Source: Heptranchias perlo (lineage: Eukaryota). From it: 64,000 nucleotides of DNA. A program made the position numbers and the translations under genes. Shown one piece after another: positions 858-57,060 of this stretch (position 1 is its first letter; each line of letters starts with the position of its first letter). The DNA lies in contig NC_090332.1 of assembly GCF_035084215.1 (NCBI RefSeq), forward strand, positions 46,438,001 to 46,502,000, written 5' to 3'. Below the pieces are notes generated by a model, which was not told the DNA's origin, ran no database searches, and saw only the letters and a program-made list of their open reading frames with translations.

Positions 858-3800
858 TTAAAGTCTACTCAATCTTTCCTCATAGGACAACCCTCTTATC
901 CCAGGAATCAATCTACTGAACCTTTGTTGGACCACCTCCAAGGCAAGTATATCCTTCCTTGGGTAAGGAGACCAAAACTGTACACAGTGCTCCAGGTGTG
1001 GTCTCACCAAAGCCCTGTACAATTGCAGAAAGACGTCCTTACTCTTATACTCCAACCCCCTTGCAAAAGGCCAACATACCATTTGCCTTCCTAAATGCTT
1101 GCTATCCTTCCATGTTAACTTTGTGATTCATGTACAAGGATACCCAAATCCCTCTGAACACCAACATTTAAATAGTTTCTCACCATTTAAAAAATATTCT
1201 GTTTTTCTATTCTTCCTACCAAAGTGAATAACCTCACATTTCCCCACATTATACTCCATCTGCCACCTTCTTGCCCACTCACTTAACCTTCTATATCCAT
1301 ATCCAATTAGAGGGTGAGAAGGTTGGTTCTCAAACAAGCGTACTGAGCTTGAATAAAGGAGACTATGATGGTATGAGAGTGGAATTGATTAAAGTGGACT
1401 GGGAAAATAGTTTAAAGGGTAAGACGGTACATGAACAGTGGTGTTCATTTAAGGAGTTATTCTAGAACTTTCAAAAAAAAATTCCACTGAGGAAAAAAGG
1501 GTGTAAAAGAAATGACAGCCATCCGTGGCTAAGTAAAGAAATTAAGGATAGTATCCGACTAAAAACAAGGACATATAAGGTAGCCAAACTTAGTGGGAGG
1601 ATAGAAGATTGGGAAGTCTTCAAAAGACAGCAAAAAGTAACGAAAGGATTGATTAAGAAAGGGAAGATAGATTATGAAAATAAATTAGCAAAAAATATAA
1701 AAACAGATAGCAAGAGTTTCTACAGTTATATAAAAAGAAAAAGGGTGGCTAAGGCAAACGTACGTCCCTTAGAGGATGAGACCGGGAAATTAATGGTGGG
1801 AAACATGGAGATGGCAAAATTGCTGAACAAATATTTTGTTTCAGTCTTTACGGTAGAGGACACTAAGAATATCCCAACAGTGGACAAACGGGGGGCTCTA
1901 GGGGGCGAGGAGCTAAATACGATTAAAATCACTAAGGAATTGGTACTCAGTAAATTAATGGGACTCAAGGCGGATAAATCCCCTGGACCTGATGGCTTAC
2001 ATCCCAGGGTCTTGAGGGAAGTGGCAGTAGGGATTGTGGATGCTTTGGTAATAATTTTCCAAAATTCTCTGGACTCGGCAAAGGTCCCGGCAGATTGGAA
2101 AACTGCTAATGTAACACCGTTATTTAAAAAGGGTATTAGGCAGAAGGCTGGAAATTATAGACCAGTTAGCCTAACATCTGTGGTGGGTAAAATTTTGGAG
2201 TCTATTATTAAGGAGACAGTAGCGGAACATTTGGATAAACATAATTTAATAGGACAAAGTCAGCATGGCTTTATGAAGGGGAAGTCATGTCTGACAAATT
2301 TGCTTGAGTTCTTTGAGGATATAACGTACAGCGTGGATAAAGGGGAACCAGTGGACGTAGTGTATTTAGGCTTCCAGAAGGCATTCGACAAGGTGCCACA
2401 TAAAAGATTATTGCTCAAGATAAAGAATCACTGGATTGGGGGTAATATTCTGGCATGGGTGGAGGATTGGTTATCTAACAGGAAGCAGAGAGTTGGGATA
2501 AATGGTACATTCTCGGACTGGCAACCAGTAGCCAGTGGTGTTCCGCAGGGGTTGGTGCTGGGTCCCCAACTCTTTACAATCTATATTAACGATTTGGAGG
2601 AGGGGGCCGAGTGTAACATATCAAAGTTTGCAGATGATACAAAGATGGGAGGGAAAGTAGAGAGTGAGGAGGACATAAAAAACCTACAAGGGGTGAGTGG
2701 GCGGAGATTTGGCAGATGCAATACAATATTGGAAAATGTGAGGTTATGCACTTTGGCAGGAAAAATCGGAGAGCAAGTTATTAGCTCAATGGCGAGAAAC
2801 TGGAAAGTACTGCAGTACAAAGGGATCTGGGGGTCCTAGTGCAAGAAAATCAAAAGGTTAGTATGCAGGTGCAGCAGGTGATCAAGAAGGCCAACGGAAT
2901 GTTGGCTTTTATTGCTAGGGGGATAGAATATAAAAACAGGGAGGTATTGCTGCAGTTATATAAAGTATTAGTGAGACCGCACCTGGAATACTGCATACAG
3001 TTTTGGTGTCCATACTTAAGAAAAAAGACATACTTGCTCTCGAGGCAGTACAAAGGAGGTTCACTCGGTTAATCCCGGGGATGAGGGGGTGGACATATGA
3101 GGAGAGGTTGAGTAGATTGGGACTCTACTCATTGGAGTTCAGAAGAATGAGAGGCGATCTTATTGAAACATATAAGATTGTGAAGGGGCTTGATTGGGTG
3201 GATGCGGTAAGGATGTTCCCAAGGATGGGTGAAACTAGAACGAGGGGGCATAATCTTAGAATAAGGGGCTGCTCTTTCAAAACTGAGATGAGGAGAAACT
3301 TCTTCACTCAGAGGGTGGTGGGTCTGTGGAATTTGCTGCCCCAGGAGGCTGTGGAAGCTACATCATTAAATAAATTTAAAACAGAAATAGACAGTTTCCT
3401 AGAAGTAAAGGGAATTAGGGGTTACGGGGAGCGGGCAGGAAATTGGACATGATTTTAGATTTGAGGTTAGGACCAGATCAGCCATGATCTTATTGAATGG
3501 CGGAGCAGGCTCGAGGGGCCGATTGGCCTGCTCCTGCTCCTATTTCTTATGTTTTTATATCCCTTTGCAGCCTGTGTCCTCCTCACAGCTTACTTTCCCA
3601 CCTAGCTTTGTGTCATCAGCAAACTTGGATACATTTCACTCTGTCCCTTCATCTAAGTTATTAATATAGATTGTAAATAGCTGAAGCCTAAGCACTGATC
3701 CTTGCGGCACCCCACTAGTTACAGCCTGCCAGCCTGAAAATGACCCGTTTATTCCTGCATTGTTTTCTGTCCATCAACCTATACTTTATCCATGCTAAAA

Positions 3801-19049: not shown

Positions 19050-20645
19050 ATTTTTTTTAAAATTCGTTCATGGGATGTGAGCGTCACTGGCGAGGCCGGC
19101 ATTTATTGCCCATCCCTAATTGCCCTCGAGAAGATGGTGGTGAGCCGCCTTCTTGAACCGCTGCAGTCTGTGTGGTGAAGGTTCTCTCAGTGCTGTTAGG
19201 AAGGGAGTTCCAGGATTTCGACCCAACGACGATGAAGGAACAGCGATATATTTCCAAGTTGGGATGGTGTGTGACTTGGAGGGGAACGTGCAGGTGGTGT
19301 TGTTCCCATGTGCCTGCTGCTCTTGTCCTTCTAGGTGGTAGAGGTCACAGGTTTGGGAGGTGCTGTTGAAGCCTTGGCGAGTTGCTGCAATGCATCCTGT
19401 GGATGGTACACACTGCAGCCACTGTGTGCCGGTGGTGAAGGGAGTGAATGGGGTGCCAATCAAGCGGGCTGCTTTGTCCTGGATGGTGTCGAGCTTCTTG
19501 AGTGTTGTTGGAGCTGCACTCATCCAGGCAAGTGGAGAATATTCCATCACACTCCTGACTTGTGCCTTGCAAATGGTGGAAAGGCTTTGGGGAGTCAGGT
19601 GGGGAGTCACTCGCTGCCCAGCCTCTGACCTATATGGCTGGTCCAGTTAAGTTTCTGATCAATGGTGACCCCCAGGATGTTGATGGTGGGGGATTCGGCG
19701 ATGGTAATGCCGTTGAATGTCATGGGGAGGTGGTTAGACCCTTGTTGGAGATGGTCATTGCCTGGCACTTATCAGCCCATGCCTGAATGTTGTCCAGGTC
19801 TTGCTGCATGCGGGCTCGGACTGCTACATTATTTGAGGGGTTGTGAATGGAACGGAACACTGTGCAGTCATCAGCGAACATCTCCATTTCTGACCATATG
19901 ATGGAGGGAAGGTCATTGATGAAGCAGCTGAAGATGGATGGGCCTAGGACACTGCCCTGAGGAACTCCTGCAGCAATGCCCTGGGGCTGAGATGATTGGT
20001 CTCCAACAACCACTACCATCTTCCTTTGTGCCAGGTATGACTCCAGCCACTGGAGAGTTTTCCCCGATTCCCATTGACTTCAATTTTACTAGGGCTCCTT
20101 GGTGCCACACTCGGTCAAATGCTGCCTTGATATCAAGGGCAGTCACCCTCACCTCACCTCTGGAATTCAGCTCTTTTGTCCATGTTTGGACCAAGGCTGT
20201 AATGAGGTCTGGAGCAGAGTGGTCCTGGCGGAACCCAAACTGAGCATCGGTGAGCAGGTTATTGGTGAGCAAGTGCCGTTTGATAGCACTGTCCATGACA
20301 CCTTCCATCACTTTGCTGACAATTGAGAGTAGACTAATGGGGCGGTAATTGGCCGGATTGGATTTGTCCTGCTTTTTGTGGACAGGACATACCTGTGCAA
20401 TTTTCCACATTGTCGGGTAGATGCCAGTGTTGTAGCTGTACTGGAACAGCTTGGCTAGAGGCGCAGCTACTTCTGGAGCACAAGTCTTCAGCACTACAGC
20501 TGGGATGTTGTCCGGGCTCATGGCCTTTGTCATATCCAGTGCACTCAGCCGTTTCTTGATATCACGTGGAGTGAATCGAATTGGCTGACGACTGGCTTCC
20601 GTGATGGTGGGGATATCAGGAGGAGGCTGAGATGGATCATCCACT
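19050..20645 (-). mobile_element. Young CR1-group LINE, family B, 5'-truncated, in XPO1 intron 14
   Basis: ORFs 19913-20644, 19720-20019, 19116-19610 (NPANYRPISLLS, LDIKAAFDRVWH, GVPQGS, FADD); A-rich 3' end. Confidence 0.92.
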
Positions 20646-21529
20646 AGTTTACCTCTTAGTGTAAAGCACTTGCAGAAACTTGGTTTTCCCCTATTCTAGA
20701 ATTTGTTCCAATGTTCTACGGATCTAAAACCTATCCTTCTACACCATCTCTCTAGCCACATTTTGATATAGGCAATCTGCTTCTGCCTAATTGGTCACTT
20801 GGTACCAATGGTAATCCTGACATTACTATCCTTAGATCTTGCTGGTTCAATCTAGAACCCAAGTCCTCAAAATTCCTCTGCAAGACCTATATCCAACCAT
20901 TTACTATTTCACTGGCTATTATATGAACTACATGAACCATGACTTCTTGCTGTTTTCATTCCCTTTCCACAAGTAGTCTACCCTCAGTTAAGGGTCTTCC
21001 CTTGGACCACTGGTTGCAGCTACAAAATCAGACTGGTTGGCCTCCAGTAATGAAATCTCCCTCTACTAATGCATGCTTATTCTCATGTATAGTTTTTTTT
21101 CCCCTCCTCTTCCCTGTGCCTACACCCCTGTCCTCATCGTAAGTGTCAAGACCTATATATACACCTATTGGACAACTCCACCCACCTTAGTTTTCTTGTA
21201 TTGATTCCTCCAGTCTCTTCTTACAGGCAGGTCACCCACATCTCGCCTGAAGACAAAAATCACCCACATCCTCCCCGCTTCTTCACTATTCTGTGAGGTG
21301 ACCAGCTTCAGGGAGGTTTCTGCTGGAAGCCCTTGCTCTTGCAAAGGCTGCATTCGGGCAACACAACGGTGACACTTCAGGAATATGCACTCCGCCTGAT
21401 TACTTTGCAGGATATCCATCATCATCCATACCGCTGTATCATTCATAGACCCTGATCCCACCATTCCCCAGCTGATGTACTAATTCTCAAGTACTAACTC
21501 ATGAATTAAACTTTCGTTTTCAACCTGTG

Positions 21530-22490
21530 GCGATAAAATGCAGGGAGACGGGAGGTGAACATTCATGGTGAGAGGCAAGGATGTGAGAGATAGCATTGTT
21601 AATGATCAACACCTCAGAAGAAGTGATAATTGAGTGGACCTAGGTATGGGCAGGAGTTTGTATGAAGGGAGAGTTAGTCTCAGAGCAAGGGAATTTGGAT
21701 ATAGTTTGAAATTAGAGAAGGGGAGTCACTCAATACCAAGACCAAGGCAAGAATCTTGGTGAAGTTAGTGTGGGGTTTGGAATGGTGGTACTCAATGAGG
21801 ATTTTAAGCAAGTGACAGGAGGAATGGAAGACTGCACAGTGCTCAAAAAGGAGAATATGTCTAAGGAATAGTGGAAAGAGTCCCAGACAGAACTTGAGAC
21901 CTGCCTCTTCACATGGTAGTTTGAGCAGAGCAAGTGATGGAGTATATAGCCAGGTGGGAAGATTTCAAAGAGAGGTAAGCAGTCATCGCCATGGTCTCTA
22001 TCAGTGCCAGGATATCTCTAGTCCTCCTGTCGGGGAATAACAGAAGTGGAAACTGGTGAGTGATTTGGTGAGAGCAAGGGTCTCCATTAGTATCAGGATG
22101 TTTAAATTCATCCACAATGAGGTCATTGATGGCAAGGACCTTGTTCACCATTAAGAATATTCTGGTTGGTGGAGTTGACACTCAAAGAATGAGCTGTTTG
22201 CTTGGTGTAGAGAACAGTGTGGGTTGTTGCTGGGTGAGCCAGGCATAGATACTGTGATAGGAGTGGGCTCATTCAAGGGACATTTGGTCCAGGGACAGTA
22301 GCAGCAAAGAAGATAGGGAGAGTGGTGTTAAGTTGGGCTAGGGATCTAGGAAGGCATTGGGGGGGGGGGGGGGGGGGGGGGGAGAAAAAGCAGGCATGGC
22401 AGTAGGAAGAGAGAATGGAGAATAGAAGCAGGGTAGGGTCCAGAAATGGCCAGAGAGAAAAGTGGGAATGACAGCTTGGATCTGGAGCAG
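21530..22490 (-). mobile_element. Decayed L2 LINE, endonuclease region
   Basis: ORF 21909-22181 VNKVLAINDLIVDE resembles the start of an L2 APE domain; purine-skewed composition. Confidence 0.5.
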
Positions 22491-22738
22491 CATCCAATTT
22501 GTGCATATAAAGTGGACAGAGACAGACCTATATTATAAATAACAGTGGTAGACTGCTGGGCATTGCGATGTTCTAGTTCTCCATATAATTATCAGATCTG
22601 GCCAATTTACTCAAAATGGATTGTTGCCATAATTTGGCAGCCCTTGTATTATTCATTTTTGCAAGAGTTGTTACCCCAACTAAAAACAGTCCCTGATACT
22701 CCATGTGAAGTCATATCAGCAACATTCAATCCACTTAC

Positions 22739-22920
22739 TTTTATTACAGTTACCAGAAATCTCTTCTCATCTTCCTCATGCATAGCGCCACTAATTGACC
22801 CAATAGCCCAACAGAGGGTGTTTAGATTCTTCCATGACCATTCAGTGCCATTCACCTGGTTGTGAAGTTTGTCAGTCATAATACGTTCAGTATCTGCATA
22901 GTCCAAATGAGTAAGGTACA
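22739..22920 (-). CDS. XPO1: Exportin-1 exon 14
   Basis: (V)[60 protein letters not shown]; gcag|TG ... AAA|gtaag; 182 nt. Confidence 0.97.
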
Positions 22921-23295
22921 CTGCAAAAAAATTAAAATTAGAGAACCATGTATTCTACTTTAGACACCATTAAGATAGTTAATATTAATATTTCTGTCAC
23001 AATTTCCTGTGCGAAGCTACATTTTTCTAAAGACAATTTGTCCAGTATTATTTAGAACAGCTTTGATTATATTGTACATTACTCAAAAATTCAAATATGT
23101 TCTATAGCAGTTTAAGCAAACTGAAGTAATGCTAATGCAGAAGAGAACAGTTACTAAAGAGTCCATGAAAATCAATTCTCTGATGCCAAGTTACATAGTA
23201 ATAATGTAGTCCCATTTTCTGGCTAAAAATACCATTGAGAAATAAATTTACCAGGATTGTTGAAACTGAAACATCCAAGAACGCGGTATCAAGTT

Positions 23296-23787
23296 TAGCG
23301 AAACCTGCAAATTACGGACACCTTAGAGATTGGCATCAGCTGTCCTTTTTTTGTTTGCAGGTGTCCTTATTTTCAAAATGGTCATTGTATGTACTGTAAA
23401 AATTGTCAGCAGAATGGAGAGTTCTTTACCCAGCATCCAGAGCAGCTGAGACACCACTCTATCCCTGGGATAGAGCCGTGCAAGCATTCAATCCCAGAGA
23501 TAGAGTGATTTCTCTGTCGCTAAGGGTACTGGGTAAAGAGCTCCCCACTCCACAAAAGCAGTTTCTTTCACAAAATCTGCTGCCGCCTTGCGCTGACCTG
23601 CGCATTCTGTGCTTTAATTTGTAAAAGGGCATGATGTGCTGAAAGCTGTCCATAGTTCATAATTTGCGTGTCCATGGTTTCACAGTGCCCCTTGTAGATT
23701 TTACCATGCAAGTTATTTGGATCTCAATAAGTATCCGTTTTGCAGGTGTCCGTTTTTTGGGAGTGTCCATTTATACAGGTTTCACTA
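23296..23787. mobile_element. Tc1/mariner (pogo/Tigger-like) MITE
   Basis: Imperfect TIRs TAGCGAAACCTGCAAATTACGGACAC vs reverse complement TAGTGAAACCTGTATAAATGGACAC; subterminal TTTGCAGGTGTCC repeats. Confidence 0.6.
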
Positions 23788-23945
23788 TACAAAATGCTGA
23801 ATATTTTTCAATAATTGTCCAAAATTGAAAAATTATGGGCTAGGAGAGATGTAGGATAGCTATTTTAAGTCATTGATATGCTTAGTTTTAAACATGATTA
23901 CATCTTCAACAATACCCTAGTTGGAGAAGGGAGGGAAAACCGTAC

Positions 23946-24084
23946 CAAGAGTTTCTCTCATATTTTTATACAAGTTGATGGAATCTGTATCCTTCATGAA
24001 CTCTCGCACAACCTCTCCTTGGTCATTTTCCACCACTAGTACTTCTTCTGGTTTGGCCATACGACTGACCATTAGAAGGCGAAC
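23946..24084 (-). CDS. XPO1: Exportin-1 exon 13 (acidic HEAT9 loop)
   Basis: [46 protein letters not shown]; caaag|GTT ... G|gtacg; 139 nt. Confidence 0.97.
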
Positions 24085-24535
24085 CTTTGAGGAAGAAGCA
24101 TCTATATATATTAAAAGTCTTGCATATGACAATTAAAAGCAGACGCTGTGGATATTAAATCATAGGGAACGATCCACATTATATACGTAAAATGATCACT
24201 ATTTAAGCAGTAATAATTTTTTCTTAAAACGTCAAGATTTTACAGACAACTATAAGGACTACTTCTGATCAAGCAAATGAACTAAGAGTGCTGTTCCACT
24301 AAGCACTTATATACAATGAAGTAGGAAAATATCTTGACCTAAACAGTAAAGCAAAAGAAATTGAATAAATTTCTTAAAAAGGACAATGATTCTAAGTGGC
24401 ATCTCTCCCTCAGGAGAGAGGGCAAATCTCAAAGAACGATACTTTAAAATATTTTAAGTGTCCGTACTACAATTAAAATTTAGGGAAGAGAGTTAATAGT
24501 ACAGATTTCTGTAAACAACCACTCTCAATGCTCAC

Positions 24536-24733
24536 CTTAGACAACACTGGCAAATAAAGTTGTCTCCTCGGAGGAACATCAAATTGTTGACTTCCAGAAA
24601 GCACAGGTGATGCAGGTGTTGAGAATGGACTTTCCCTGTAGAGTTCAGAAGCCAAATGGTTCCAATACTCCAGGCAAATTTTGAATATCTCAGTTTCCTC
24701 CACTTCAGAGACAAGCAGCATGTAATGAAGAGC
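24536..24733 (-). CDS. XPO1: Exportin-1 exon 12
   Basis: ALHYMLLVSEVEETEIFKICLEYWNHL...PPRRQLYLPVLSK; acag|GCT ... AAG|gtgag; 198 nt. Confidence 0.97.
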
Positions 24734-24850
24734 CTGTGGAATAGACAAAAGATTGCCTGAATTCAGTTCTTTTCTTTCTACAGCAGTTATGTGCAATAAT
24801 TTATACCAACATTAAGCACAATACACATTAACATTTGCTAAAACTCTTAC

Positions 24851-25009
24851 CTCCATAAGGGTTTCTCTCAGATTCAATCGTTTTTCAATAAGCTGCCCAT
24901 GTTCTTTCAAGAACGTACAAAGAAACAGGCTCAAGTTCTGGATGAAATTCTGTTCATCATCCTTTCCATTGGCATAAGCCACTCGAATATTGGTGTTCAA
25001 AGGGAGCAT
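24851..25009 (-). CDS. XPO1: Exportin-1 exon 11
   Basis: MLPLNTNIRVAYANGKDDEQNFIQNLSLFLCTFLKEHGQLIEKRLNLRETLME; ttag|ATG ... GAG|gtaag; 159 nt. Confidence 0.97.
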
Positions 25010-26587
25010 CTAACAGTAAATTTAGAAAAAAACCATCTCATGAGTATGACTCAGACTCAATCACCTATAGTCACAATTTATTCTACTCAACTGTTACACT
25101 AACACGAGCTCAAAACCCATCAAATCTAATGCTTATGAATCCCTTTCAGGCAGGAAATAATGTAACTTGCATAAAACTGCATATGAAGCACTTAAATCAG
25201 TCAGTAAGTTGTTATCCTGGAATAATGCATTGAAATCTCACTGAAGGCAGAAAGGTTGGGGGAAAATGGAAAGAGAGAAAACAAAATAAAAAATGCAAAA
25301 AAAAGGTATTAAGATACTTTAGTGCTGTTTTTCCAAATTCTGTTAATTGAACCAGGATGAGTTACTGACCACTGTAGTAGCCCTAATTCTCACTGAAGTC
25401 TTTGACACACTGCGATTATTTACCAAAACCAGCATATTCACCACTCAGTGACTTGAAGAGCCATTTTGGAGTAAGTTAGTATATTTTCAGTTCAAAAGAC
25501 AAATCTTTTTGCCTCTGGAGCCAAGAAGCTCATTTCTAAAAAAAGTAAACCCTTCCCCTCTGTACCAGAAAGTAACAGTCCCAAACTTAGACATCTTTGT
25601 AAAAAAGGAAATGCACAAACCCTCGCCCTGTCTAAGCACATCTCTCTGAAAAGTCCCTCCCAGGTCCAAGTCTTTTCACTGGCCATGGCAGCTCCTCAAC
25701 CCCACTATATACTTCTATAAAATACAATTCATAACATCATAAACCTGAAACATTAAAAGAATTCTCATGCAAAAATCATACATTTACCAATACCATAATA
25801 AAATTCCTGAACCACTCTCTTATAGACACAGACTTTTTCCTGGACCTCCTGTTTTTCACTCAGGCATTTCCAGAATGACTTTCCAGTTTCTATGCAGGGT
25901 TAGCACCCCTCAAACCTTCCTATGGGATGTCTGTGCATAAACAAGCCTTCAAATACCCCTCATTGCCACTTTGCACTGTCCTTCTCTACCACTCCTCACC
26001 ATGAAATCCTCCCAACAATTTCTCCTGGTAGCCACCATCTCAATAGAATGGGAGCTTTGAGCACACTACAAACAGTTAATCTGACATACCATTCTATTCC
26101 AGAAATACGTGCCCCTCTCTATGCCTTTATATTTTCCAAAGCAAGTTTCCATGCCTTGGTGACATGCCACTTGAAAAACACACTAAGCTGCATTTGTCAT
26201 TAACTTTTCAACACCAACTTTAATGCAGACTCTTTTCTTCCTTGATACTCAAATGGCAACAACATGCATTTTAATCCTCCTCTTCAAATAAAGTTCCAAC
26301 CCCACCTATACTCTCCCACTGCATACAGCCTACTACACCCAGTGTCTCTCCCTTCCTGTCATTGCATCAGCACAACCTCTGACTCACCATGAAGAATGCC
26401 AAGGGAGGTCAAATAAATTTTAAAATGTGTCTAATTCTAGGGAACTGATTTGTTTGTAATAGCCGTATGACTATTAATGCACTGTCTGCTGGCTGGCTTG
26501 ATGTGGAGATGCCGGTGATGGACTGGGGTGGACAAATGTAAGGAATCTTACAACACCAGGTTATAGTCCAACAAATTTATTTTAAAA

Positions 26588-26624
26588 TCACAAGCTTTCG
26601 GAGATTATCTCCTTCGTCAGATGA
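26588..26624 (-). ncRNA. Minimal type I hammerhead ribozyme (intact core) in the PLE 3' pseudo-LTR
   Basis: Minus-strand RNA UCAU-CUGACGA-A-GGAGA-UAA-UCUCC-GAAA-GC-UU-GUGA: CUGANGA and GAAA core, 5-bp stem II, palindromic AAGCUU stem III, stem I UCAU/GUGA. Confidence 0.75.
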
Positions 26625-26858
26625 ATGAATGAAAAGGTTCTCAAATCGCATATCTTATACTATGTTGGGACAGCATCACACCAATCAAAAGGTGTCGTTG
26701 TTATTCAAACAGGCCAGTCACAGAGAACAGCACGTCCCAGTACACTCGATATACATTGTGTCTTTTACACAGGCAGGCAGAAAGAAACTCAAAATGGTAG
26801 AGAGAGAGAGAGAATTTTAAAAAACATATAAATTTTTCCCCCCTTTTTGCTGGTGGGG

Positions 26859-29465
26859 TTACGTGTAGCGTGACATGAACCCAAGATCCCGGTTGAGGCC
26901 GTCCTCATGGGTGCGGAACTTGGCTATCAACTTCTGCTCGACGATTTTGCATTGTCGTGTGTCTCGAAGGCCGCCTTGGAGAACGCTTACCCGAAGATCG
27001 GTGGCTGAATGTCCTTGACTGCTAAAGTGTTCCCCGACTGGGAGGGAACCTTCCTGTTTGGCGATTGTTGCGCGGTGTCCGTTCATCCGTTGTCGCAGCG
27101 TCTGCATGGTCTCGCCAATGTACCATGCTCCTGGGCATCCTTTCCTGCAACGTATGAGGTAAACAACGTTGGCCGAGTCACAGGAGTATGAACCATGTAC
27201 CTGGTGGGTGGTGTCCTCTCGTGTGATGGTGGTATCCGTGTCGATGATCTGGCAAGTCTTGCAGAGGTTGCCGTGGCAGGGTTGTGTGGTGTCGTGGACG
27301 CTGTTCTCCTGAAAACTGGGTAACTTGCTGCGAACGATGGTCTGTTTGAGGTTGGGTGGCTGTTTAAAGGCGAGCAGTGGAGGCGTGGGGATGGCCTTAG
27401 CGAGGTGTTCATCGTCATCGATGACATGTTGAAGGCTGCGGAGAACATGGTGTAGTTTCTCCGCTCCAGGGAAGTACTGGACGACGAAGGGTACTCCGTT
27501 GGTTGCGTCCCGTGTTTGTCTTCTGAGGAGGTCTATGCGATTCTTCGCTGTGGCCCGTCGGAACGGTCGATCGACAAGTCGAGCGTCATATCCCGTTCTT
27601 ACGAGGGCGTCTTTCAGCGTCTGTAGGTGTCCATCGCGTTCCTCCTCGTCTGAGCAGATCCTGTGTATTCGTAGGGCCTGTCCATAGGGGATGGCCTCTT
27701 TGACGTGGTTGGGGTGGAAGCTGGAAAAGTGGAGCATCGTGAGGTTGTCCGTGGGCTTGCGGTAGAGTGAGGTGCTGAGGTGCCCGTCTTTGATGGAGAT
27801 TTGTGTGTCCAAGAAAGAAACCGATTCTGAGGAGTAGTCCATGGTGAGTTTGATGGTGGGATGGAACTTGTTGATGTTATCGTGTAGTCTCTTCAGTGAT
27901 TCTTCGCCGTGGGTCCATAGGAAGAAAATGTCGTCGATGTATCTGGTGTATAGCGTTGGTTGGAGGTCCTGTGCAGTGAAGAAGTCGTGCTCGAACTTGT
28001 GCATGAAAATGTTGGCGTATTGGGGTGCAAATTTGGTCCCCATGGCTGTTCCGTGTGTTTGGGTAAAGAACTGGTTATTGAAGGTGAAGACATTGTGATC
28101 CAGGATGAAGCGGATGAGTTGTAGGATGGCGTCTGGAGATTGGCTGTTGTTGGTGTTGAGTACTGAGGCTGTTGCAGCGATGCCGTCATCGTGGGGGATA
28201 CTGGTGTATAGTGCCGAGACGTCCATCGTGGTGAGAAGTGTTCCTGGTTCAACTGGTCCGTGGGTGCTGAGTTTTTGTAGGAAGTCTGTAGTGTCGCGAC
28301 AGAAGCTGGGGGTTCCCTGTACGATGGGTTTCAGGATGCCCTCGACGTATCCAGAGAGGTTCTCACACAGGGTTCCGTTGCCTGATACGATAGGACGTCC
28401 AGGTGTGTTGGCTTTGTGTATCTTTGGGAGGCAGTAGAAGTCTCCCACGCGGGGAGTACGTGGGATGAGAGTGCGTAGGATGCTTTGAAGGTCTGGATCG
28501 AAGGTCTTGATCAGTTTGTTGAGCTGGTGGGTGTGTTCTTTGGTCGGATCTGCGGGTAACCGTCTGTAGTGTTCCTGGTTGTCCAGTTGTCGGTATGCTT
28601 CTTTGCAATAGTCCGTTCTGTTCTGTATGACAATGGCTCCTCCTTTGTCCGCTGGTTTGATGACGATGTTTCGGTTGGTCTTGAGAGCGTTGATGGCGTT
28701 GCGTTGTGCTCGGGTGACATTCTGGACTGTCTTCTGAGTGCGCCTGATGAATCTGGCATTGACGCATTTCCTGACAGCTTGGGCATACATGTCAAGCTGA
28801 GGGTAGCGACCCTCCGGAGGAGTCCAGTTTGACTCTTTCCTCTTCGGTTGCTGTACCGTGGATCCCTCTGTCTGCTGTTCTGGATCATTGATTGTCTCAT
28901 TGGGTTCACTGTTGAAATCTTGGGGTTTGTGGTAAAATTCCCGAAGCCTCATTCTCCTGATGAATTCCTCTGTGTCCGCCGCGAGACCGATGCGGTCCAT
29001 TTTGGTGGTGGGGCAGAAATTGAGCCCTCGGCTGAGAACCTCGATTTCGTCTGGTTGAAGGGTGTGGTCGGACAAATTGATGATTGACTTCCCTGTGGTT
29101 GTAACCGTGGTACCGGGGGAGGCTTGATTGATGCTGGTGGTGATGCCGAGTTTCTCAAGCTTCCTGCTCTTGGTTTTCATGTAGGAAGTGTAGTTCCGTT
29201 GCCTCGTCTGTTTGGCGGTATATCGTAGCTGGTCTGCTGTGTCCTGAGTACAGGTTGAGAGTATGGACTCTATCTTGGTTTCGAGGTTGTGGCGTCTGCT
29301 GTAGAGTTGGTGTATGAGATGGTTGCAGAGTGTGCGAGAGGTACGGCGGCAGAGTCGCTCAGCGTAATCCGAGTTGTATGTGGACTTGAGTGGGTTCTTG
29401 ATCTGTAGTCCTTTCGGGATCTTGTCTGCTTTCTTGCAGCTCTGTAAAAACTTGATGTCACCCAT
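26859..29465 (-). CDS. Penelope-like reverse transcriptase / GIY-YIG endonuclease, 868 aa, uninterrupted
   Basis: IKPADKGG, LPKIHK..PGRPIVS, MDVSALYTSI, GTAMG, RYIDD, SLYRKPT; C-terminal NVVYLIRC...YIGET GIY-YIG domain with a preceding Cys-rich motif. Confidence 0.93.
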   Translation of the reverse strand: MGDIKFLQSCKKADKIPKGLQIKNPLKSTYNSDYAERLCRRTSRTLCNHLIHQLYSRRHNLETKIESILSTCTQDTADQLRYTAKQTRQRNYTSYMKTKSRKLEKLGITTSINQASPGTTVTTTGKSIINLSDHTLQPDEIEVLSRGLNFCPTTKMDRIGLAADTEEFIRRMRLREFYHKPQDFNSEPNETINDPEQQTEGSTVQQPKRKESNWTPPEGRYPQLDMYAQAVRKCVNARFIRRTQKTVQNVTRAQRNAINALKTNRNIVIKPADKGGAIVIQNRTDYCKEAYRQLDNQEHYRRLPADPTKEHTHQLNKLIKTFDPDLQSILRTLIPRTPRVGDFYCLPKIHKANTPGRPIVSGNGTLCENLSGYVEGILKPIVQGTPSFCRDTTDFLQKLSTHGPVEPGTLLTTMDVSALYTSIPHDDGIAATASVLNTNNSQSPDAILQLIRFILDHNVFTFNNQFFTQTHGTAMGTKFAPQYANIFMHKFEHDFFTAQDLQPTLYTRYIDDIFFLWTHGEESLKRLHDNINKFHPTIKLTMDYSSESVSFLDTQISIKDGHLSTSLYRKPTDNLTMLHFSSFHPNHVKEAIPYGQALRIHRICSDEEERDGHLQTLKDALVRTGYDARLVDRPFRRATAKNRIDLLRRQTRDATNGVPFVVQYFPGAEKLHHVLRSLQHVIDDDEHLAKAIPTPPLLAFKQPPNLKQTIVRSKLPSFQENSVHDTTQPCHGNLCKTCQIIDTDTTITREDTTHQVHGSYSCDSANVVYLIRCRKGCPGAWYIGETMQTLRQRMNGHRATIAKQEGSLPVGEHFSSQGHSATDLRVSVLQGGLRDTRQCKIVEQKLIAKFRTHEDGLNRDLGFMSRYT

Positions 29466-29747
29466 GAGGACGGCCTCAACCGGGATCTTGGGTTCATGTC
29501 ACGCTACACGTAACCCCACCAGCAAAAAGGGGGAAAAAATTTATATGTTTTTTAAAATTCTCTCTCTCTCTCTGCCATTTTGAGTTTCTTTCTGCCTGCC
29601 TGTGCAAAAGACACAATGTATATCGAGTGTACTGGGACGTGCTGTTCTCCGTGACTGGCCTGTTTGAATAACAACGACACCTTTTGATTGGTGTGATGCT
29701 GTCCCAACATCGTATAAGATATGCGATTTGAGAACCTTTTCATTCAT

Positions 29748-29784
29748 TCATCTGACAAAGGAGATAATCTCCGAAAGCTTGTGA
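29748..29784 (+). ncRNA. Hammerhead ribozyme copy with core mutation (CUGACAA, G8A) in the inverted pseudo-LTR
   Basis: TCAT CTGACAA A GGAGA TAA TCTCC GAAA GCTT GTGA; differs from the other copy only at 29757. Confidence 0.65.
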
Positions 29785-30898
29785 TTTTAAAATAAATTTG
29801 TTGGACTATAACCTGGTGTTGTAAGATTCCTTGCTGGCTGGCTAGCAGGGACCAATCAGATGCAAAAGTTGGTATATGATGGCCATCATCTCAGAAGCTT
29901 TCCAAACTTGCAGCTTCTTAGCCCCAGGTCCTGTTCTTCTTCATGTTCCAATCCATTGTAGCTATTGAGGCCACCCTTCCCTTTCAATCCCTGGTAGGTT
30001 ATTAAGCCTACTCACTCAAAAGTTTCAGGCTTCAACTCTGCTGAAATCAATATTTACTCAATACTTTTAAACTGCATATATAAAACACACTAATATATGC
30101 TGCTAGTATGTTTTTGTATCAAGATCATTTTGTGCTATTTTATTATTCTTCTGATAGACAATAGTGGCATTTGGTGGAATCCACAAAAAGACAAATAAAA
30201 TTTTACCAAAATATAATACGCTCAGCAGTATGGGACAGGATTCAGGGATGAGTATATAGAGGGAGTGTGACTAAATAAAAAAAATCAGTTATTTTGGGGG
30301 GGGGGGGGGGGTGGCGGGGAGGGCAGGTTACACATGTGCAAGCAAGGGAAAGATTGTAAGAATGACAGACTATGTTTTGTCCATAAGCAACAATTCAGGA
30401 GATCAACTATTTACTATATGAATTTTATTTTGTCTAAAATAATTATGTTTGTTAGCCATGGAGTAAATGGCCATTAAATTATTGAAGTTAGAGTTTTCAA
30501 TTAAAGTAGGGAGTCTCGCCCACAAAGCACAGCTAAGCTCATTTCCTTTTGTGTGGATATTTCATTTGTCATTTGCCCTAGTTGACTTTGTGGGCTGAGA
30601 GGTTTAAAAAGGCTGTTTTTTAGTAGTTCTCTCACTGATGGGTAAATCTAAGCCAGAAAAGCCAAGATCTATATCTACAGGTTTAGATGTATGCAAATTA
30701 ACGGGAACATTGATTTAAGCTTTACATGGTTCCTAAGGATCTATAGTAAGCACTTATGTGGCCCACGAAGACAAAAGTACACTGCTCCTTTAATACTTTT
30801 CCATGTACTGGTTTTAACATGTTATATGATTAATATCCAGAGATCTGTAGAGAACACATTAGAATTGCTACTTTCACAAAGGGTGGGGTTTGAAATAC

Positions 30899-31027
30899 CT
30901 GTTTCAGTTGTATCATTGTTAGTGTAAAGAGAGTAACAAACTGTTCTTCATACTGGCTGACGCTCACTCCAGCTATCTCTGTCAGGCACTTCAGGGTCAC
31001 ATTTCTGAACATGGGCACATTCAGAAA
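30899..31027 (-). CDS. XPO1: Exportin-1 exon 10
   Basis: FLNVPMFRNVTLKCLTEIAGVSVSQYEEQFVTLFTLTMIQLKQ; tag|TTT ... CAG|gtatt; 129 nt. Confidence 0.97.
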
Positions 31028-31120
31028 CTATATAAAAAAACAAAACACGTTATTTAGTTACACCTATAGTTTCTCATTTAAGGATCTTTTGCAGATCTGG
31101 AATATAAAGGATACACATAC

Positions 31121-31240
31121 CTTATAGATCAGTGTGCTAATTAGCTTTGTTTCAAAGATATACCCAAGCGGAATCCAATTTAAGAATCTCAGCAATGTTT
31201 CCAAGGTTGCTTGAACAAGAGGTGCATTTTGAGAGTTTTC
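31121..31240 (-). CDS. XPO1: Exportin-1 exon 9
   Basis: ENSQNAPLVQATLETLLRFLNWIPLGYIFETKLISTLIYK; cag|GAA ... AAG|gtatg; 120 nt. Confidence 0.97.
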
Positions 31241-31328
31241 CTGCAGCCAAAAAAAAATGTTTGATGAAATCTGCCTGAATTAAAATGAAAAAGACAGGGT
31301 TTTAAAAGATGACAAATTCCTTATTTAC

Positions 31329-31377
31329 CATGACAAACTGGCATAGCTGGAATATCTGAGAGAATTCATTGCACATG
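31329..31377 (-). CDS. XPO1: Exportin-1 exon 8
   Basis: (S)MCNEFSQIFQLCQFVM; cag|C ... ATG|gtaaa; 49 nt. Confidence 0.97.
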
Positions 31378-31485
31378 CTGCAAAGAAACAAGACGTCACT
31401 AATCAAGTAACTGGAATAAAAATTTTTTTTTTTTAAAAACCTCAAACAATATTAACTTTAATAAAATGCAATTTCCAGTTTTTAC

Positions 31486-31667
31486 CTGTCCTTCAGATGT
31501 TTTGCTTTAACTTGGGTCATCTGCCCACTGGAGAAGTCAAACACCTCCTCACTCAGCAATTTTAGAATAATCATGTTGTTCTGACACAAGCTCTCGCTGG
31601 TTCTACTTGCGCCTACAATGTCACTGATGAATGTGGGCCAGTGTTTTGGCCATTCTTGTTTCAGTAT
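31486..31667 (-). CDS. XPO1: Exportin-1 exon 7
   Basis: [32 protein letters not shown]...AKHLKD; tag|ATA ... AG|gtaaa; 182 nt. Confidence 0.97.
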
Positions 31668-33054
31668 CTACGTGTAAATAACCATAAACAGTTAAATACG
31701 TTGTGCAAAATCATAGATCTTAAAAAAAAAGCTTAAAATAGCTAACATTTTCCTCCAGTTGATCCAAATTAGCCAACATTTTGAGCCAAAAGGGTGCCAG
31801 AAATCTGATGCCACAGGCCAACCTGAAGCACATCCAGACATAAAAAAGAACCTTCCTTCTTAGTTTATAAATCTGATCAAAGTGTTGCCTGTCTAGAAGT
31901 GCAGAATCCTAGTTAACAGGAACTTGAAAACCTATCTAGGTGATCCATCCCATGCAAAACTTGGGCCAATTTATGTTCTGCTAGGATCTCCATCTCAAAG
32001 TTAGGTAGAAGCCAGGTTCAAGCTCACTAAGACATTTGCAATCAACTTAGGTTTTTTTTAAAAACACAAGTTCTTTGTACTAAGAAATACCTCCACTCAC
32101 TCAGCACCTGGTGATAACCACTATCTGTTCCAGTAGCTAAAGCCAAGCGTTTATTTTCTAGTACCAGCCAGTACAGTGTGTTTTTGGCACAACATCACAA
32201 AAAAAAATTCAATTATCACATTTGAGGCACAAGAGACAGGAAGGTGTATTGACAATCAGTACTAAAATGGTCAACACATATGGCCTATTAGCATTAAGTT
32301 TGCCTTTTGTGCAACACCCACTTCTGCTGCAACAGTTAGAGTTCCAATTTAAGCCTTTAAAGTCAAGTCTTGGTAGAGGTGATAACCTGCTGCTCATGCA
32401 AAATTATCTTGTTTGTGAAGGAAAGTCAGGGTTAGTGAACCTCCAACCACCAACGGAGCAGGTTTGCAGGATTTGTTTATACTTTGGACCCAATTCCTTC
32501 CAATTTGGCACAAAGTTCAATCTGATGTGGGAAGAGATGCCCAACTCTACTTTGCACCAACGTGAAAAGATTAAACAGGGAATATAAGCACCAGGAATGA
32601 ATGGTTACATTCAGTACAGAATTTAGATCTTGTTGTAATAGAAAACTTACTGCCACTCCCCACCAGCACCAACCCCCCCAACCCAAAAAAAAACAGAACT
32701 CAACTAGATGGCAACACTGGAGAGTAAAACAAAAAATGCTTGGGGAGAATCCTCGTTATAGAGCATAAAAGAGTCAACATTATCAAAAATATCAGGCTAT
32801 GCTCAATTTGTAACCTAGGCTTACACCTACTGCACGTTAACGTGGAGGATGCTGAACAAAGAATACTCCATGATCTACTATATACCTCCAGCATCTTGTT
32901 AAGTTCAATGTATAAAATAAGTGAGAACAAGAAGCTATCACATTCCTTTTCAAACATATACTTTATTATATTGCTGGAATAATGAAGTTTAGAAATATAC
33001 ACATACTTAAAAGTACTGTCAATGAACCTACTCACAAAGCATCTTCGATCTCAC

Positions 33055-50399: not shown

Positions 50400-51507
50400 G
50401 GACTACTTTGTCACTGATTGAGACCATTTAATCAGCAGCCTCGGCTGCTTCCCTTCTAGCCCACCAAGCCACGCTTCCCCTAAGGTTCCCCCCTGCCCCA
50501 GCTCTGAATTCACGTCTTTCTCTAGTTTCTCTCCTATCTCCCCTCATGCCCTGTCCAAGCTCATCTTGACCATTAGACCCACCTCCTGCTCTCTCGACCC
50601 TATTCCCACTAAATTGCAGACCACCTAACTTCCCTTCCTGGCCCCCATGTTAGCTGATATTGTTAACCGTTCTCTCTCCTCAGATACTGTCCCCCTCCCC
50701 TTCAAAAAACCCACCCTTGACCCCTTTGTCCTTGCAAACTACAGCCCCCTCTCCAACCTCCTTTTCCTCTCCAAGTCCTTGAACAGGTTGTCGCCTCCCA
50801 AATCCGTGGCCATCTTTCTCGCAACTCCATGTTTGAACCCCTTCAATAAGGGTTCCGCCCATGCTACAGTACTGAAACGGCCCATATCAAAGTCACAAAT
50901 GATGTCTTATGTGACTGTGACCGTGGTAAACTATCCCGCCTCATCTTTCTCGATCTGTCTGCAGCCTTTGACAAGGTTGACCACACCATCCTCATCCAAA
51001 ACATCTCGTCCCTCGTCCAACTGGGTGGGACTGTGCTCACCTGGTTCCTTTCTTATCTATCCAGTTGCAGACAGAGAATCACCTGCAATGGCTTCTCTTC
51101 CGACTCCTGCACCGTTACCTCTGGAGTGTCCCCCCCCCCCCCCCCCATCGATCTATCTTTGGCCCCCTTCTGTTTCTCATCTCCATCTGCCCCTTGGCAA
51201 CATCATCTGAAAATACGACTTTAGGTTCCACATATATGCTGATGACACCCAGCTCTACCTCATCACCACCTCCCTCGACCCCTCCACTGTCTTTGATTTG
51301 TCTCGCTGCTTGTCTGATATCCAGTACTGGATGAGCAAAAATTTCCTCCAACTAAATATTGGGAAGACCGAAGCCATTGTCTTCGGTCCCCGCTACAAAC
51401 TCTGTTCTCCAGCCACCGACTCCATCCCTCTCCCTGGCCATTATCTGAGGCTGAACCAGATCATTCACAACCTTGGTGTCCTATTTGACCCTGAGATGAG
51501 CTTCTGA
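50400..51507 (+). mobile_element. L2 LINE ORF2 fragment (RT)
   Basis: LDPIPTKL, KKPTLDP..LANY, DLSAAFD, YADDTQLY, WMSKNFLQLNIGKTE across frameshifts. Confidence 0.88.
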
Positions 51508-54679: not shown

Positions 54680-57060
54680 AAGAAAAAGAGAGACCTGATT
54701 GCACTTATATAGTGCCTTTAACGACCTCAAGACATTCAAAAGCGCTTTACAGCCATTGAAATACTTTTGAAGTGTAGGGGATCAACCCTGGTTCAATGAG
54801 GAGTGTAGAAGAGCATGCCAGGAGCAGCACCAGGTGTACCTAAAAATGAGGTGCCAACCTGGTGAAGCTACAACTCAGGACTACGTGCATGCTAAACAGC
54901 TGAAGCAACATGCTATAGACAGAGCTAAGTAATTCCACTACCAACGGATCAGATCAAAGCTCTGCAGTCCTACCACATCCAGTCGTGAATGGTGGTGGAT
55001 AATTAAACAACTAACGGGAGGAGGAGGCTCTTTAACCATCCCCATCCTCAATGATGGCGGAGTCCAGCTCGTGAGTACAAAACACAAGGCTGAAGCGTTT
55101 GCAACCATCTTCAGCCAGAAGTGCCGAGTGGATGATCCATCTTGGCCTCCTCCCAATATCTCCACCATCACAGAAGCCAGTCTTCAGCCAATCCGATTCA
55201 CTCCACGTGATATCAACGAATGGCTGAGTGCACTGGATACAGCAAAGGCTATGGATCCCGACAAAGTCAAGCTGTTCCAGTACAGCTACAACACTGGCAT
55301 CTACCCGACAATGTGGAAAATTGCCCAGGTATGTCCTGTCCACAAAAAGCAGGACAAATCCAATCCGGCCAATTACCGCCCCATCAGTCTACTCTCAATC
55401 ATCAGCAAAGTGATGAAAGGTATCATCGACAGTGCTATCAAGCGGCACTTACTCACCAATAACCTGCTCACCAATGCTCAGTTTGGGTTCCGCCAGCACC
55501 ACTCTGCTCCAGACCTCATTACAGCCTTGGTCCAAACATGGACAAAAGAGCTGAATTCCAGAGGTGAGGTGAGAGTGACTGCCCTTGATATCAAGGCAGC
55601 ATTTGACCGAGTGGCACCAAGGAGCCCTAGTAAAATTGAAATCAATGGGAATCAGGGGGAAAACTCTCCAGTGGCTGGAGTCATACCTAGCACAAAGGAA
55701 GATGGTAGTGGTTGTTTGGGGCCAATCATCTCAGCCCCAGGACATTGCTGCAGGAGTTCCTCAGGGCAGTGTCCTAGGCCCAACCATCTTCAGCTGCTTC
55801 ATCAATGACCTTCCCTCCATCATAAGGTCAGAAATGGGGATGTTCACTGATGATTGCACAGTGTTCAGTTCCATTCGCAACCCCTCAAATAATGAAGCGG
55901 ACCATGCCCGCGTGCAGCAAGTCCTGGACAACATCCAGGCTTGGGCTGATAAGTGGCAAGTAACATTCGCACCAGACAAGTGCCAGGCAATGACCATGTC
56001 CAACAAGAGAGAGTCTAACCACCTCCCCTTGACATTCAACGGCATTACCATCACCGAATCCCCCACCATTGACCAGAAACTTAACTGGACCAGCCATATA
56101 AATAGTGTGGCTACAAGAGCAGTCAGAGGCTGGGTATTCTGCGGCGAGTGACTCACCTGACTCCCCAAAGCCTTTCCACCATCTACAAGGCACAAGTCAG
56201 GAGTGTGATGGAATACTCTCCACTTGCCTGGATGAGTGCAGCTCCAACGATGCTCAAGAAGCTCGACACCATCCAGGACAATGCAGCCCGCTTGATTGGC
56301 ACCCCATCCACCACCCTAAACATTCATTCCCTTCACCACCGGCGCACAGTGGCTGCAGTGTTTACCATCCACAGGATGCATTGCAGCAACTCGCCAAGGC
56401 TTCTTCGACAGCACCTCCCAAACCCGCGACCTCTACCACCTAGAAGGCAAGGGCAGCAGGCACATGGGAACACCACCACCTGCATGCTCCCCTCCAAGTC
56501 ACACACCATCCCGACTTGGAAATATATCGCCGTTCGTTCATCGTCGCTGGGTCAAAATCCTGGAACTCCCTAACAGCACTGTGGGAGCACCTTCACCACA
56601 CGGTTTGCAACGGTTCAAGAAGGCAGCATAGGCAATAAATGCCGGCCTCGCCAGCGACACCCACGTCTCATGAACGAATTTTTAAAAAGTCATTGTTTTA
56701 ATGTAGGAAACGCGGCAACCAGTTTGCACACAGCATGGTCCCACAAATGGCAATGTGATAATTACCAGATAATCTTTTTTTTCAGTGGTGTTGGTTGAGG
56801 GATAAATATTGACCATGATACCAGGAGAACACCCCTGCTCTTCTTCAAAATAGTGCCCTGGGATCTTTTATATCCACCTGAGAGGGCAGACTCAGTTTAA
56901 GGGCCTCATCTAAAAGACAGCACCTCTGACAGTCCAGCACTCCCTCATTGCTGCACTGAAGTGTCAGCCTAGATTATGTGCTCAAGTCTCTGGACTGGGG
57001 CTTGAACCCACAACCTTCTGATTCAGAGGCAAAAGTGCTACCACTGAGCCACAGCTGACA
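54680..57060 (-). mobile_element. SacSINE1-like SINE split by a family B LINE (pieces 54680-54777 and 56689-57060)
   Basis: TTTTGAAGTGTAG| resumes as |GTCATTGTTTTAATGTAGG; head CTTGAACCCACAACCTTCTG..CACTGAGCCAC. Confidence 0.85.
54778..56688 (+). mobile_element. Young CR1-group LINE, family B, 5'-truncated
   Basis: ORFs 55071-55808, 55585-56151, 56148-56573; same 3' end CATGAACGAATTTT-A(n) as 19050-20645. Confidence 0.92.

What the first reader, a model, noticed from the sequence alone, without database searches (positions are those of the whole stretch)
26588..26624. Intact-core hammerhead ribozyme on the XPO1 pre-mRNA strand
Seen: the minus strand reads UCAU-CUGACGA-A-GGAGA(UAA)UCUCC-GAAA-GCUU-GUGA, giving hammerhead core boxes, stem II, a palindromic AAGCUU stem III and a 4-bp stem I; predicted cleavage follows CUU. 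Known: Penelope-like elements carry minimal type I hammerheads in their pseudo-LTRs, and those with palindromic stem III tend to act as dimers. Inference: XPO1 is transcribed from this strand, so every pre-mRNA of an essential gene carries a potential self-cleaving motif in intron 10. Cleavage could release PLE RNA from the host transcript or reduce XPO1 output.
Basis: partly seen in the sequence, partly recalled or inferred. Interest (0 to 1): 0.8.

Follow-up and report, generated by a model that had tools for sequence, protein, structure and literature searches.

The report
Jumping-gene hammerhead masked inside XPO1 intron
The small hammerhead self-cutting RNA motif is really there, but it is the standard end-piece of a Penelope-like jumping gene with about 82,000 look-alikes in this genome, and in XPO1's RNA it is predicted to be zipped shut by the element's own mirror-image copy, so it likely does nothing to XPO1.

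Summary
Observation confirmed; host-effect inference not supported. The 37-nt minimal type I hammerhead lies in the 3' pseudo-LTR of a young 3.3-kb Penelope-like element (RT + GIY-YIG, Neptune-type zinc finger, 12-bp target duplication) in the intron after XPO1 coding exon 9, on XPO1's strand. It is common: 2,055 exact copies and 82,575 intact cores genome-wide, so about 0.7 sense-strand cores are expected in a gene this long. It is transcribed first and is predicted to pair all 37 nt. No second sense core lies in the gene as a dimer partner. The motif class is published (Cervera 2014), and this scan has reported it before in four findings on other genomes. New detail from copies: the ribozyme sits between a conserved TATA/Inr and a conserved AATAAA. 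36 of 100 copy 5' ends pile up at its 5' edge and only 1 at the cut site. This LTR-like layout suggests short run-off cDNAs from uncut RNA, and raises a testable circle-or-jump question about how longer copies arise.

The parts
26588..26624 (-). Minimal type I hammerhead, intact core; predicted cut between 26592 and 26591
   Evidence: 2,055 exact copies
26499..29458 (-). Sense arm of the Penelope-like element; lacks the first ~79 nt of the ORF seen in tandem copies; ends at the long 'tail' end, just before the ATG of tandem copies
26859..29465 (-). Uninterrupted 868-codon frame: DKG motif, RT, CX4CxxC linker finger, GIY-YIG endonuclease; first ATG supplied in frame by the inverted arm
   Evidence: RVT_1 E 3e-10; GIY-YIG E 2e-4, 22.1 bits, just under the 22.6 cut-off
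29459..29832 (+). Inverted 5' arm (pLTR plus ORF end), 374 nt, 6 differences from the 3' arm; antisense to the ribozyme in XPO1 pre-mRNA
29748..29784 (+). Hammerhead of the inverted arm with G8A at 29757 (sporadic CpG decay; 13 such copies genome-wide)
26653..26659 (-). TATA-like box, 34-42 nt 5' of the core across subfamilies whose spacer differs
   Evidence: promoter role inferred
26621..26632 (-). Inr-like TCAT repeats overlapping stem I; the zone where copy 5' ends pile up (putative transcription start)
   Evidence: start site inferred
26576..26581 (-). AATAAA 10 nt 3' of the cut, with a GU-rich stretch at 26558-26550 (putative poly(A) signal)
   Evidence: 29 of 30 and 83 of 88 copies; function untested
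26499..26539 (-). 'Tail', present on the 3' arm only
26487..26498 (.). Target-site duplication, 3' copy (12 bp)
29832..29843 (.). Target-site duplication, 5' copy (one base shared with the arm end)
30899..31027 (-). XPO1 coding exon 9 (upstream flank)
24851..25009 (-). XPO1 coding exon 10 (downstream flank)

Best explanation
This is the ordinary minimal hammerhead carried in the pseudo-LTR of a recently inserted Penelope-like retroelement, and in XPO1 pre-mRNA it is likely inert, because it is predicted to be base-paired to the element's own inverted copy and has no second sense copy to pair with as a dimer. Shown: the element, its two head-to-head arms, the target duplication, the copy numbers, and conservation of core and stems among subfamilies. 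Inferred: the motif is kept by selection on the element, where it works, if at all, as a dimer between the two direct pLTRs of a tandem source copy about 3,040 nt apart, perhaps helped by the element's protein. Inferred: the XPO1 copy arose when both strands of a staggered 12-bp cut were extended from one source element's RNA, starting 93 and about 55 nt 3' of the scissile bond, and the two cDNAs were joined head to head. That geometry puts the antisense arm upstream of the sense ribozyme in any host transcript, whichever strand is read.
For: Element anatomy. 2,055 exact copies and 82,575 cores, controls 0 and 3. Head-to-head pairs: 21 among the first 100 exact hits and 30 among the first 100 anchor hits, counted by hand from the listings. 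19 of 20 two-arm loci have 12-14 bp duplications and 18 of 20 have one long and one short end. Arms of one insertion differ by 0.49%, arms of different insertions by 1.30%; 20 of 20 insertions agree at a column split 18:23. All 37 nt pair to 29748-29784 in the MFE fold. No partner core in the gene. In 76 copies chosen without regard to the core, variation shared by many copies falls in loop II, the stem-II closing pair and wobble-compatible stem positions. Literature: PMC4209133 (single motif inactive, dimer weak), PMC11167929 (protein-assisted; no RNA-seq read ends at the cut), PMC8557442 (inverted 5' copies, tail on one end).
Against: No RNA data for this organism: cleavage, pairing and XPO1 levels are unmeasured. 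The fold is an equilibrium prediction; the arms are 2.5 kb apart and splicing, hnRNPs or ADAR could leave a window in which the motif is free. With 82,575 cores, a partner in trans cannot be excluded. The window's arms are less alike than usual (6 of 370 against a 0.49% mean) and disagree at one shared polymorphism, so they may come from two templates. Both-sided covariation is thin: 3 of 9 pairs, mostly the closing pair, which is unpaired in 8 of 24 hand-picked rows.
Confidence: 0.85

Rival explanations
1. The ribozyme cuts some XPO1 pre-mRNAs co-transcriptionally, alone or paired in trans with another core or helped by PLE protein, lowering XPO1 output or releasing element RNA.
For: Core intact and on the XPO1 strand. 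The Anolis motif cleaves when the element's protein is added (PMC11167929). Xenopus tandem-hammerhead retrozymes are under-represented in introns (bioRxiv 10.64898/2026.07.22.740005, passages).
Against: Antisense arm upstream; no sense partner in the gene; the active dimer as I drew it scores -12.9 kcal/mol against 2 x -7.0 for monomers, secondary structure only; expected by chance; single motifs inactive in vitro (PMC4209133).
Confidence: 0.06
2. The insertion affects XPO1 by another route: a 374-bp intronic RNA duplex (A-to-I editing, slower splicing) or premature polyadenylation at the sense-strand AATAAA 10 nt past the ribozyme.
For: Duplex predicted at about -708 kcal/mol. AATAAA at 26581-26576 followed by a GU-rich stretch is the only AATAAA in the element on this strand and is kept in 29 of 30 and 83 of 88 copies.
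Against: The AATAAA lies inside the same duplex. The insertion is more than 1 kb from either exon. No RNA evidence was available.
Confidence: 0.2
3. The motif is catalytically dead or nearly so even in the element and is kept as part of the promoter/5' leader or a protein-binding site rather than as a ribozyme.
For: It overlaps the Inr-like repeats and lies between TATA and AATAAA. Copy 5' ends do not pile up at the cut (1 of 89 arms; 0 of the 18 junction copies that reach the region). Catalytic mutants did not affect insertion in vitro (PMC11167929).
Against: All catalytic positions and the AGCU palindrome are kept while the spacer upstream diverges. A cut-and-religated circle would leave no trace at the cut.
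Confidence: 0.2
4. The motif has been domesticated as a conserved intronic regulator of XPO1, like the amniote RECK-type intronic hammerheads.
For: Intronic and sense; precedent in PMC6155905 (passages).
Against: The copy is about 99% identical to many others, so it is young; it is identical to 2,054 other copies; it lacks helix III. Orthologous loci could not be examined.
Confidence: 0.02

Closest known systems
Minimal hammerheads (min-HHR) in the pLTRs of metazoan Penelope-like elements (Cervera and De la Pena 2014, PMC4209133; read parts 1-2 of 4: abstract, results, discussion)
   Same: Type I, no helix III, 4-bp helix I, unpaired base between 9 and 10.1, G10.1-C11.1, palindromic 15.2-16.2, located in the pLTR, mostly dispersed, opposite-strand pairs close together.
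   Different: Helix II is 4-5 bp (7-8 in Schistosoma). 82,575 cores here against about 4,000 in coelacanth and 9,000 in Xenopus in that paper (different search methods). No shark case came up in my one search for it.
Poseidon PAc of Anolis carolinensis (Frangieh et al. 2024, PMC11167929; read parts 1-2 of 4: main text, start of methods)
   Same: Two internal RT start sites downstream of the hammerhead that bracket the tail; both strands cut and extended; no ends at the cut site.
   Different: In PAc the ORF starts in stem II; here the ATG follows the tail, 93 nt past the cut. This element has the CX4CxxC linker finger that Poseidon lacks.
Neptune-type EN+ PLEs and inverted-arm insertions (Craig et al. 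2021, PMC8557442; Arkhipova et al. 2013, PMC3846280; Schostak et al. 2008, PMC2377424; passages only)
   Same: RT then GIY-YIG, linker finger, 5'-truncated head-to-head inverted copy, tail on one end, short target duplication; TATA plus TCACT Inr was noted in a rotifer pLTR.
   Different: Those passages do not place the ribozyme between Inr and AATAAA or map copy 5' ends against it. D. virilis Penelope has a TATA-less internal promoter.
Ultraconserved intronic type I hammerheads of amniotes, RECK/CTCL (PMC6155905, passages)
   Same: Intronic, type I.
   Different: Those are canonical and conserved across species; this one is a minimal motif in a young high-copy insertion.

Membership tests
PLE minimal type I hammerhead | Core CUGANGA ... 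GAAA ... UH | tested here: met
   H17 is U
PLE minimal type I hammerhead | Unpaired base between A9 and G10.1; G10.1-C11.1 pair | tested here: met
   A in 75 of 76; G 75, C 74 of 76
PLE minimal type I hammerhead | No monomer helix III; palindromic 15.2-16.2 | tested here: met
   AGCU invariant in 76 of 76
PLE minimal type I hammerhead | Located in a PLE pLTR | tested here: met
PLE minimal type I hammerhead | Stems I and II kept among subfamilies | tested here: inconclusive
   94.4% of cells paired and mostly wobble changes, but only 3 of 9 pairs change on both sides, in 24 hand-picked related rows; a pattern for other stem-II pairs found 6 hits against 1 control
PLE minimal type I hammerhead | Self-cleavage as dimer or with protein | not testable with these tools
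   needs bench assay; no raw RNA reads listed
Canonical type I hammerhead (Rfam models) | Match to a curated covariance model; helix III and loop-loop contacts | tested here: not met
   no hammerhead family at E<=10 in 20000-33000
EN+ Penelope-like element | Single ORF, RT then GIY-YIG with two cysteines inside the motif, DKG motif | tested here: met
   GIY-YIG just under the curated cut-off; motifs read from the translation
EN+ Penelope-like element | Direct or inverted pLTR, tail on one end, target duplication | tested here: met
Neptune clade | CX2-5CxxC finger before the endonuclease (shared with Nematis) | tested here: met
   CX4CxxC in the translation; definition from PMC8557442
Neptune clade | RT phylogeny groups with Neptune rather than Nematis | not tested
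   no named reference PLE proteins were fetched
Domesticated intronic hammerhead | Conserved at the orthologous position across species | not testable with these tools
   no relatives held for this genome; youth of the copy argues against

The most novel reading that the evidence does not exclude
The pseudo-LTR is built like a true LTR (TATA, start site, hammerhead, AATAAA, GU-rich stretch, two RT start sites, ATG). The element's RNA starts at the ribozyme's 5' edge and ends before the 3' tail, so the abundant 90-125 nt copies are strong-stop-like cDNAs, and longer copies need either a ribozyme-cut and religated RNA circle or a retrovirus-like strand jump through the repeat. The head-to-head insertion geometry then masks the ribozyme and poly(A) signal in host pre-mRNAs, letting tens of thousands of intact cores be tolerated in introns.
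Probability: 0.2. Interest if true: 0.65.

Novelty: new member of a known kind. Interest (0 to 1): 0.27.

Why it matters
For XPO1 it most likely does not matter: it is one of tens of thousands of such motifs. The family matters more than the locus. It is young, has tandem copies with a full 891-codon frame (L041), and its copy ends record where reverse transcription starts and stops relative to the ribozyme. What PLE hammerheads do in vivo is open (PMC4209133 proposes circles; PMC11167929 finds no need for cleavage in vitro). This family makes that testable with cap, 3'-end and circular-RNA sequencing. The masking geometry also predicts that single-arm sense copies, but not two-arm copies, should be depleted from introns.

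Tried and rejected
Rfam scan: no hammerhead model matched. I first read a shared allele among close copies as G8A and took it for a ribozyme-dead active lineage; genome counts (13 G8A, 30 C7T, 2,055 intact) showed this was wrong, the allele is at 26625, outside the core. The G8A/C7T imbalance (binomial p 0.014) is weak, since the C7T copies cluster on a few contigs. Pile-up of 5' ends at the cut site: not seen in the core-blind sample (1 of 89, itself an internal deletion) or in 30 of 180 tail-ATG junction copies. One search found 29 copies with a non-T before the cut; by eye 11 (10 insertions) begin there, 4 through the 4-nt stem-I microhomology, but there is no neighbouring-position control for them, so they are not counted as evidence. 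Other hammerhead families with a different stem II: 6 hits, 1 control. Expression: no RNA holder listed; the 18 runs are guessed-RNA contigs holding at most 23% of the words. Laying five of them showed relatives of the element only, no XPO1 intron flank and no usable ends. Lunse et al. 2017 (dimer paper) is not held in the library, so I saw only its citation and a summary in PMC6765202. Supplements of the cited papers were not read; those of PMC4209133 may hold closer vertebrate motifs. The effect of U at position 17 on rate was not checked beyond a search listing. The organism is a vertebrate; 'shark' rests on recalled likeness and on earlier scan notes, not on a call.

Full report
Observation. 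The predicted scissile bond is 26592/26591. On its own the 37-mer folds stems I and II (-7.8 kcal/mol, z -1.06). Rfam finds no hammerhead at E<=10 in 20000-33000, which fits a motif without helix III. It is not chance: the exact 37-mer occurs 2,055 times in the 3.25-Gb genome, reversed control 0.

Host gene. Pfam CRM1 repeats and tblastn with two exportin-1 proteins place XPO1 on the minus strand from 46429 to about 11.8 kb beyond the window's left end. The element lies in the 5,889-nt intron between coding exons 9 (31027-30899) and 10 (25009-24851). Counting one non-coding exon, implied by an acceptor-like AG before the ATG, this is intron 10.

The element. A sense arm (29458-26499) holds an uninterrupted frame with DKG, RT (E 3e-10), a CX4CxxC linker and GIY-YIG (E 2e-4, just under cut-off). 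This is an EN+ PLE of Neptune type by the definitions in PMC8557442; no tree was built. Tandem copies show a unit of about 3,040 nt whose ATG directly follows the tail. The XPO1 copy lacks the first 79 nt of that ORF and has no direct upstream pLTR. Its 5' end is an inverted copy of the 3' end, 29459-29832, 374 nt with 6 differences. A 12-bp target duplication flanks the whole. The inverted arm's core has G8A. Only 13 genome copies have this, against 30 with C7T at the same CpG, so it is sporadic decay.

How common. A core pattern finds 82,575 matches, control 3: one per 39 kb, or 0.74 on the sense strand of a 58-kb gene. An intronic core in XPO1 needs no special explanation. Four earlier findings of this scan describe the same thing in other genomes; I did not check their loci.

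Insertion geometry. Among the first 100 exact hits, 21 pairs are head to head within 3.5 kb and 2 are direct tandems. Among the first 100 hits of an anchor outside the ribozyme, 30 pairs are head to head. Of 20 multi-arm loci fetched, 19 have 12-14 bp duplications, and 18 have one arm ending about 93 nt and the other 54-59 nt 3' of the cut. These match the two RT start sites around the tail shown for Anolis PAc (PMC11167929). Arms of one insertion differ by 0.49% and arms of different insertions by 1.30%. At five polymorphic columns the arms agree in 17/17, 16/17, 17/17, 18/19 and 20/20 insertions; at two columns in simple repeats only in 11/14 and 8/15. So both arms usually come from one source. 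The window insertion is the exception at one column.

Consequence for XPO1. Pol II copies the antisense arm first. The MFE fold of 29900-26400 pairs all 37 nt of the motif to 29748-29784; the arm duplex is about -708 kcal/mol and the 37-mer duplex -66, against -7 for the hammerhead-like fold. A scan of the window plus 30 kb downstream finds no other sense core inside the coding span; two older ones lie 8 and 13 kb past the stop codon (168 N in the window and other motif families are not covered). Single min-HHRs did not cleave and dimers cleaved weakly (PMC4209133). The Anolis motif needed protein and left no RNA-seq ends. Cleavage of XPO1 RNA is therefore unlikely, though unmeasured.

Is the motif under selection in the element? 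Of 100 arms chosen by the outside anchor, 76 cover the motif without gaps; 24 were dropped as truncated, rearranged or gapped. 59 of the 76 have an intact core. Widely shared variants fall at stem I position 4 (C-G or U-G), stem II pair 3 (A-U or G-U), the closing pair and loop II. Core changes are scattered: G12A in 5, a CpG site, and C3 changes mostly at junctions. The spacer upstream diverges strongly between subfamilies. On 24 hand-picked distinct rows, 94.4% of cells pair and 3 of 9 pairs change on both sides; the rows are related and chosen, so this is supportive, not proof.

Where copies stop. In the same 100 arms, 5' ends lie 0-15 nt upstream of the anchor in 11, at the cut site (16-20) in 1, at 21-40 in 10, at 41-65 (the ribozyme's 5' edge) in 36, at 66-90 in 3 and further in 39. 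The rate is 1.85% per nt at the edge, 0.29% just beyond and 0.22% at the cut (Fisher p 6e-6). Arms are not fully independent and microhomology at the TCA repeats may contribute. Long arms carry a TATA-like box 34-42 nt before the core (37 of the 40 library arms scored; the library was filtered for TATA but is about as large as the set of 39 long arms). Inr-like TCAY repeats overlap stem I. TATA plus TCACT was noted in a rotifer pLTR (PMC3846280). AATAAA lies 10 nt past the cut in 29 of 30 core-selected and 83 of 88 anchor-selected copies, with a GU-rich stretch after it in 28 of 30; insertions lack poly(A) (1 of 100 with a run of 8 A). I infer that transcripts start at the ribozyme's 5' edge and that short copies are run-off cDNAs from uncut RNA. 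Intact ribozymes at copy ends do not exclude cleavage, because a religated circle restores the motif. Read-through of tandem copies, the published model, also explains long arms, so the circle or jump reading stays a hypothesis. Searches for this layout in print returned no paper on it, but the library is partial.

Verdict. Real motif, known class, ordinary location, probably masked. New member of a known kind. The family-level map of starts and stops is the part worth following. Papers seen: PMC4209133 and PMC11167929, parts 1-2 of 4; bioRxiv 10.64898/2026.07.22.740005, part 1 of 5 and passages; PMC8557442, PMC6765202, PMC2377424, PMC3846280, PMC6155905, passages; Lunse 2017, not seen.

Noticed in passing
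window 29465-29459: The inversion junction supplies an in-frame ATG, giving an 868-codon open frame that lacks only the first ~25 residues of the 891-codon ORF of tandem copy L041.
   Followed up: partly
window 26625: A T/A polymorphism one base 5' of stem I (A in 18 of 39 other arms) would lengthen stem I from 4 to 6 bp; the XPO1 copy has the short-stem allele.
   Followed up: partly
L113, L118, L119, L123: Inversion junctions join one arm beginning exactly at the cut site to the other arm's stem I 5' strand through 4 nt of shared sequence.
   Followed up: partly
G000:C1:4435535-4467211 (listing): Several cores spaced about 3,080 nt apart: a tandem array of another subfamily, a candidate source locus where dimers could form.
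   Followed up: no
L126-L129 (G000:C45): Four identical copies with a broken core (GAAA and U17 changed) on one contig; probably segmental duplicates.
   Followed up: no
L235/L234, about 20.3 and 25.1 kb left of the window start: Two older-subfamily cores on the XPO1 strand 8 and 13 kb past its stop codon; the second is a very short head-to-head pair.
   Followed up: partly
window 1466-3452, 19116-20695, 35936-36532, 50629-51334, 54933-56631, 60785-61963: Many broken LINE-like reverse transcriptase frames (CR1/L2-like by recalled motifs) in and around XPO1 introns.
   Followed up: no
L091/L092 (G000:C2:75226368-75226446): The tail-ATG junction is duplicated in tandem 52 nt apart, suggesting repeated priming at the RT start site.
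   Followed up: no
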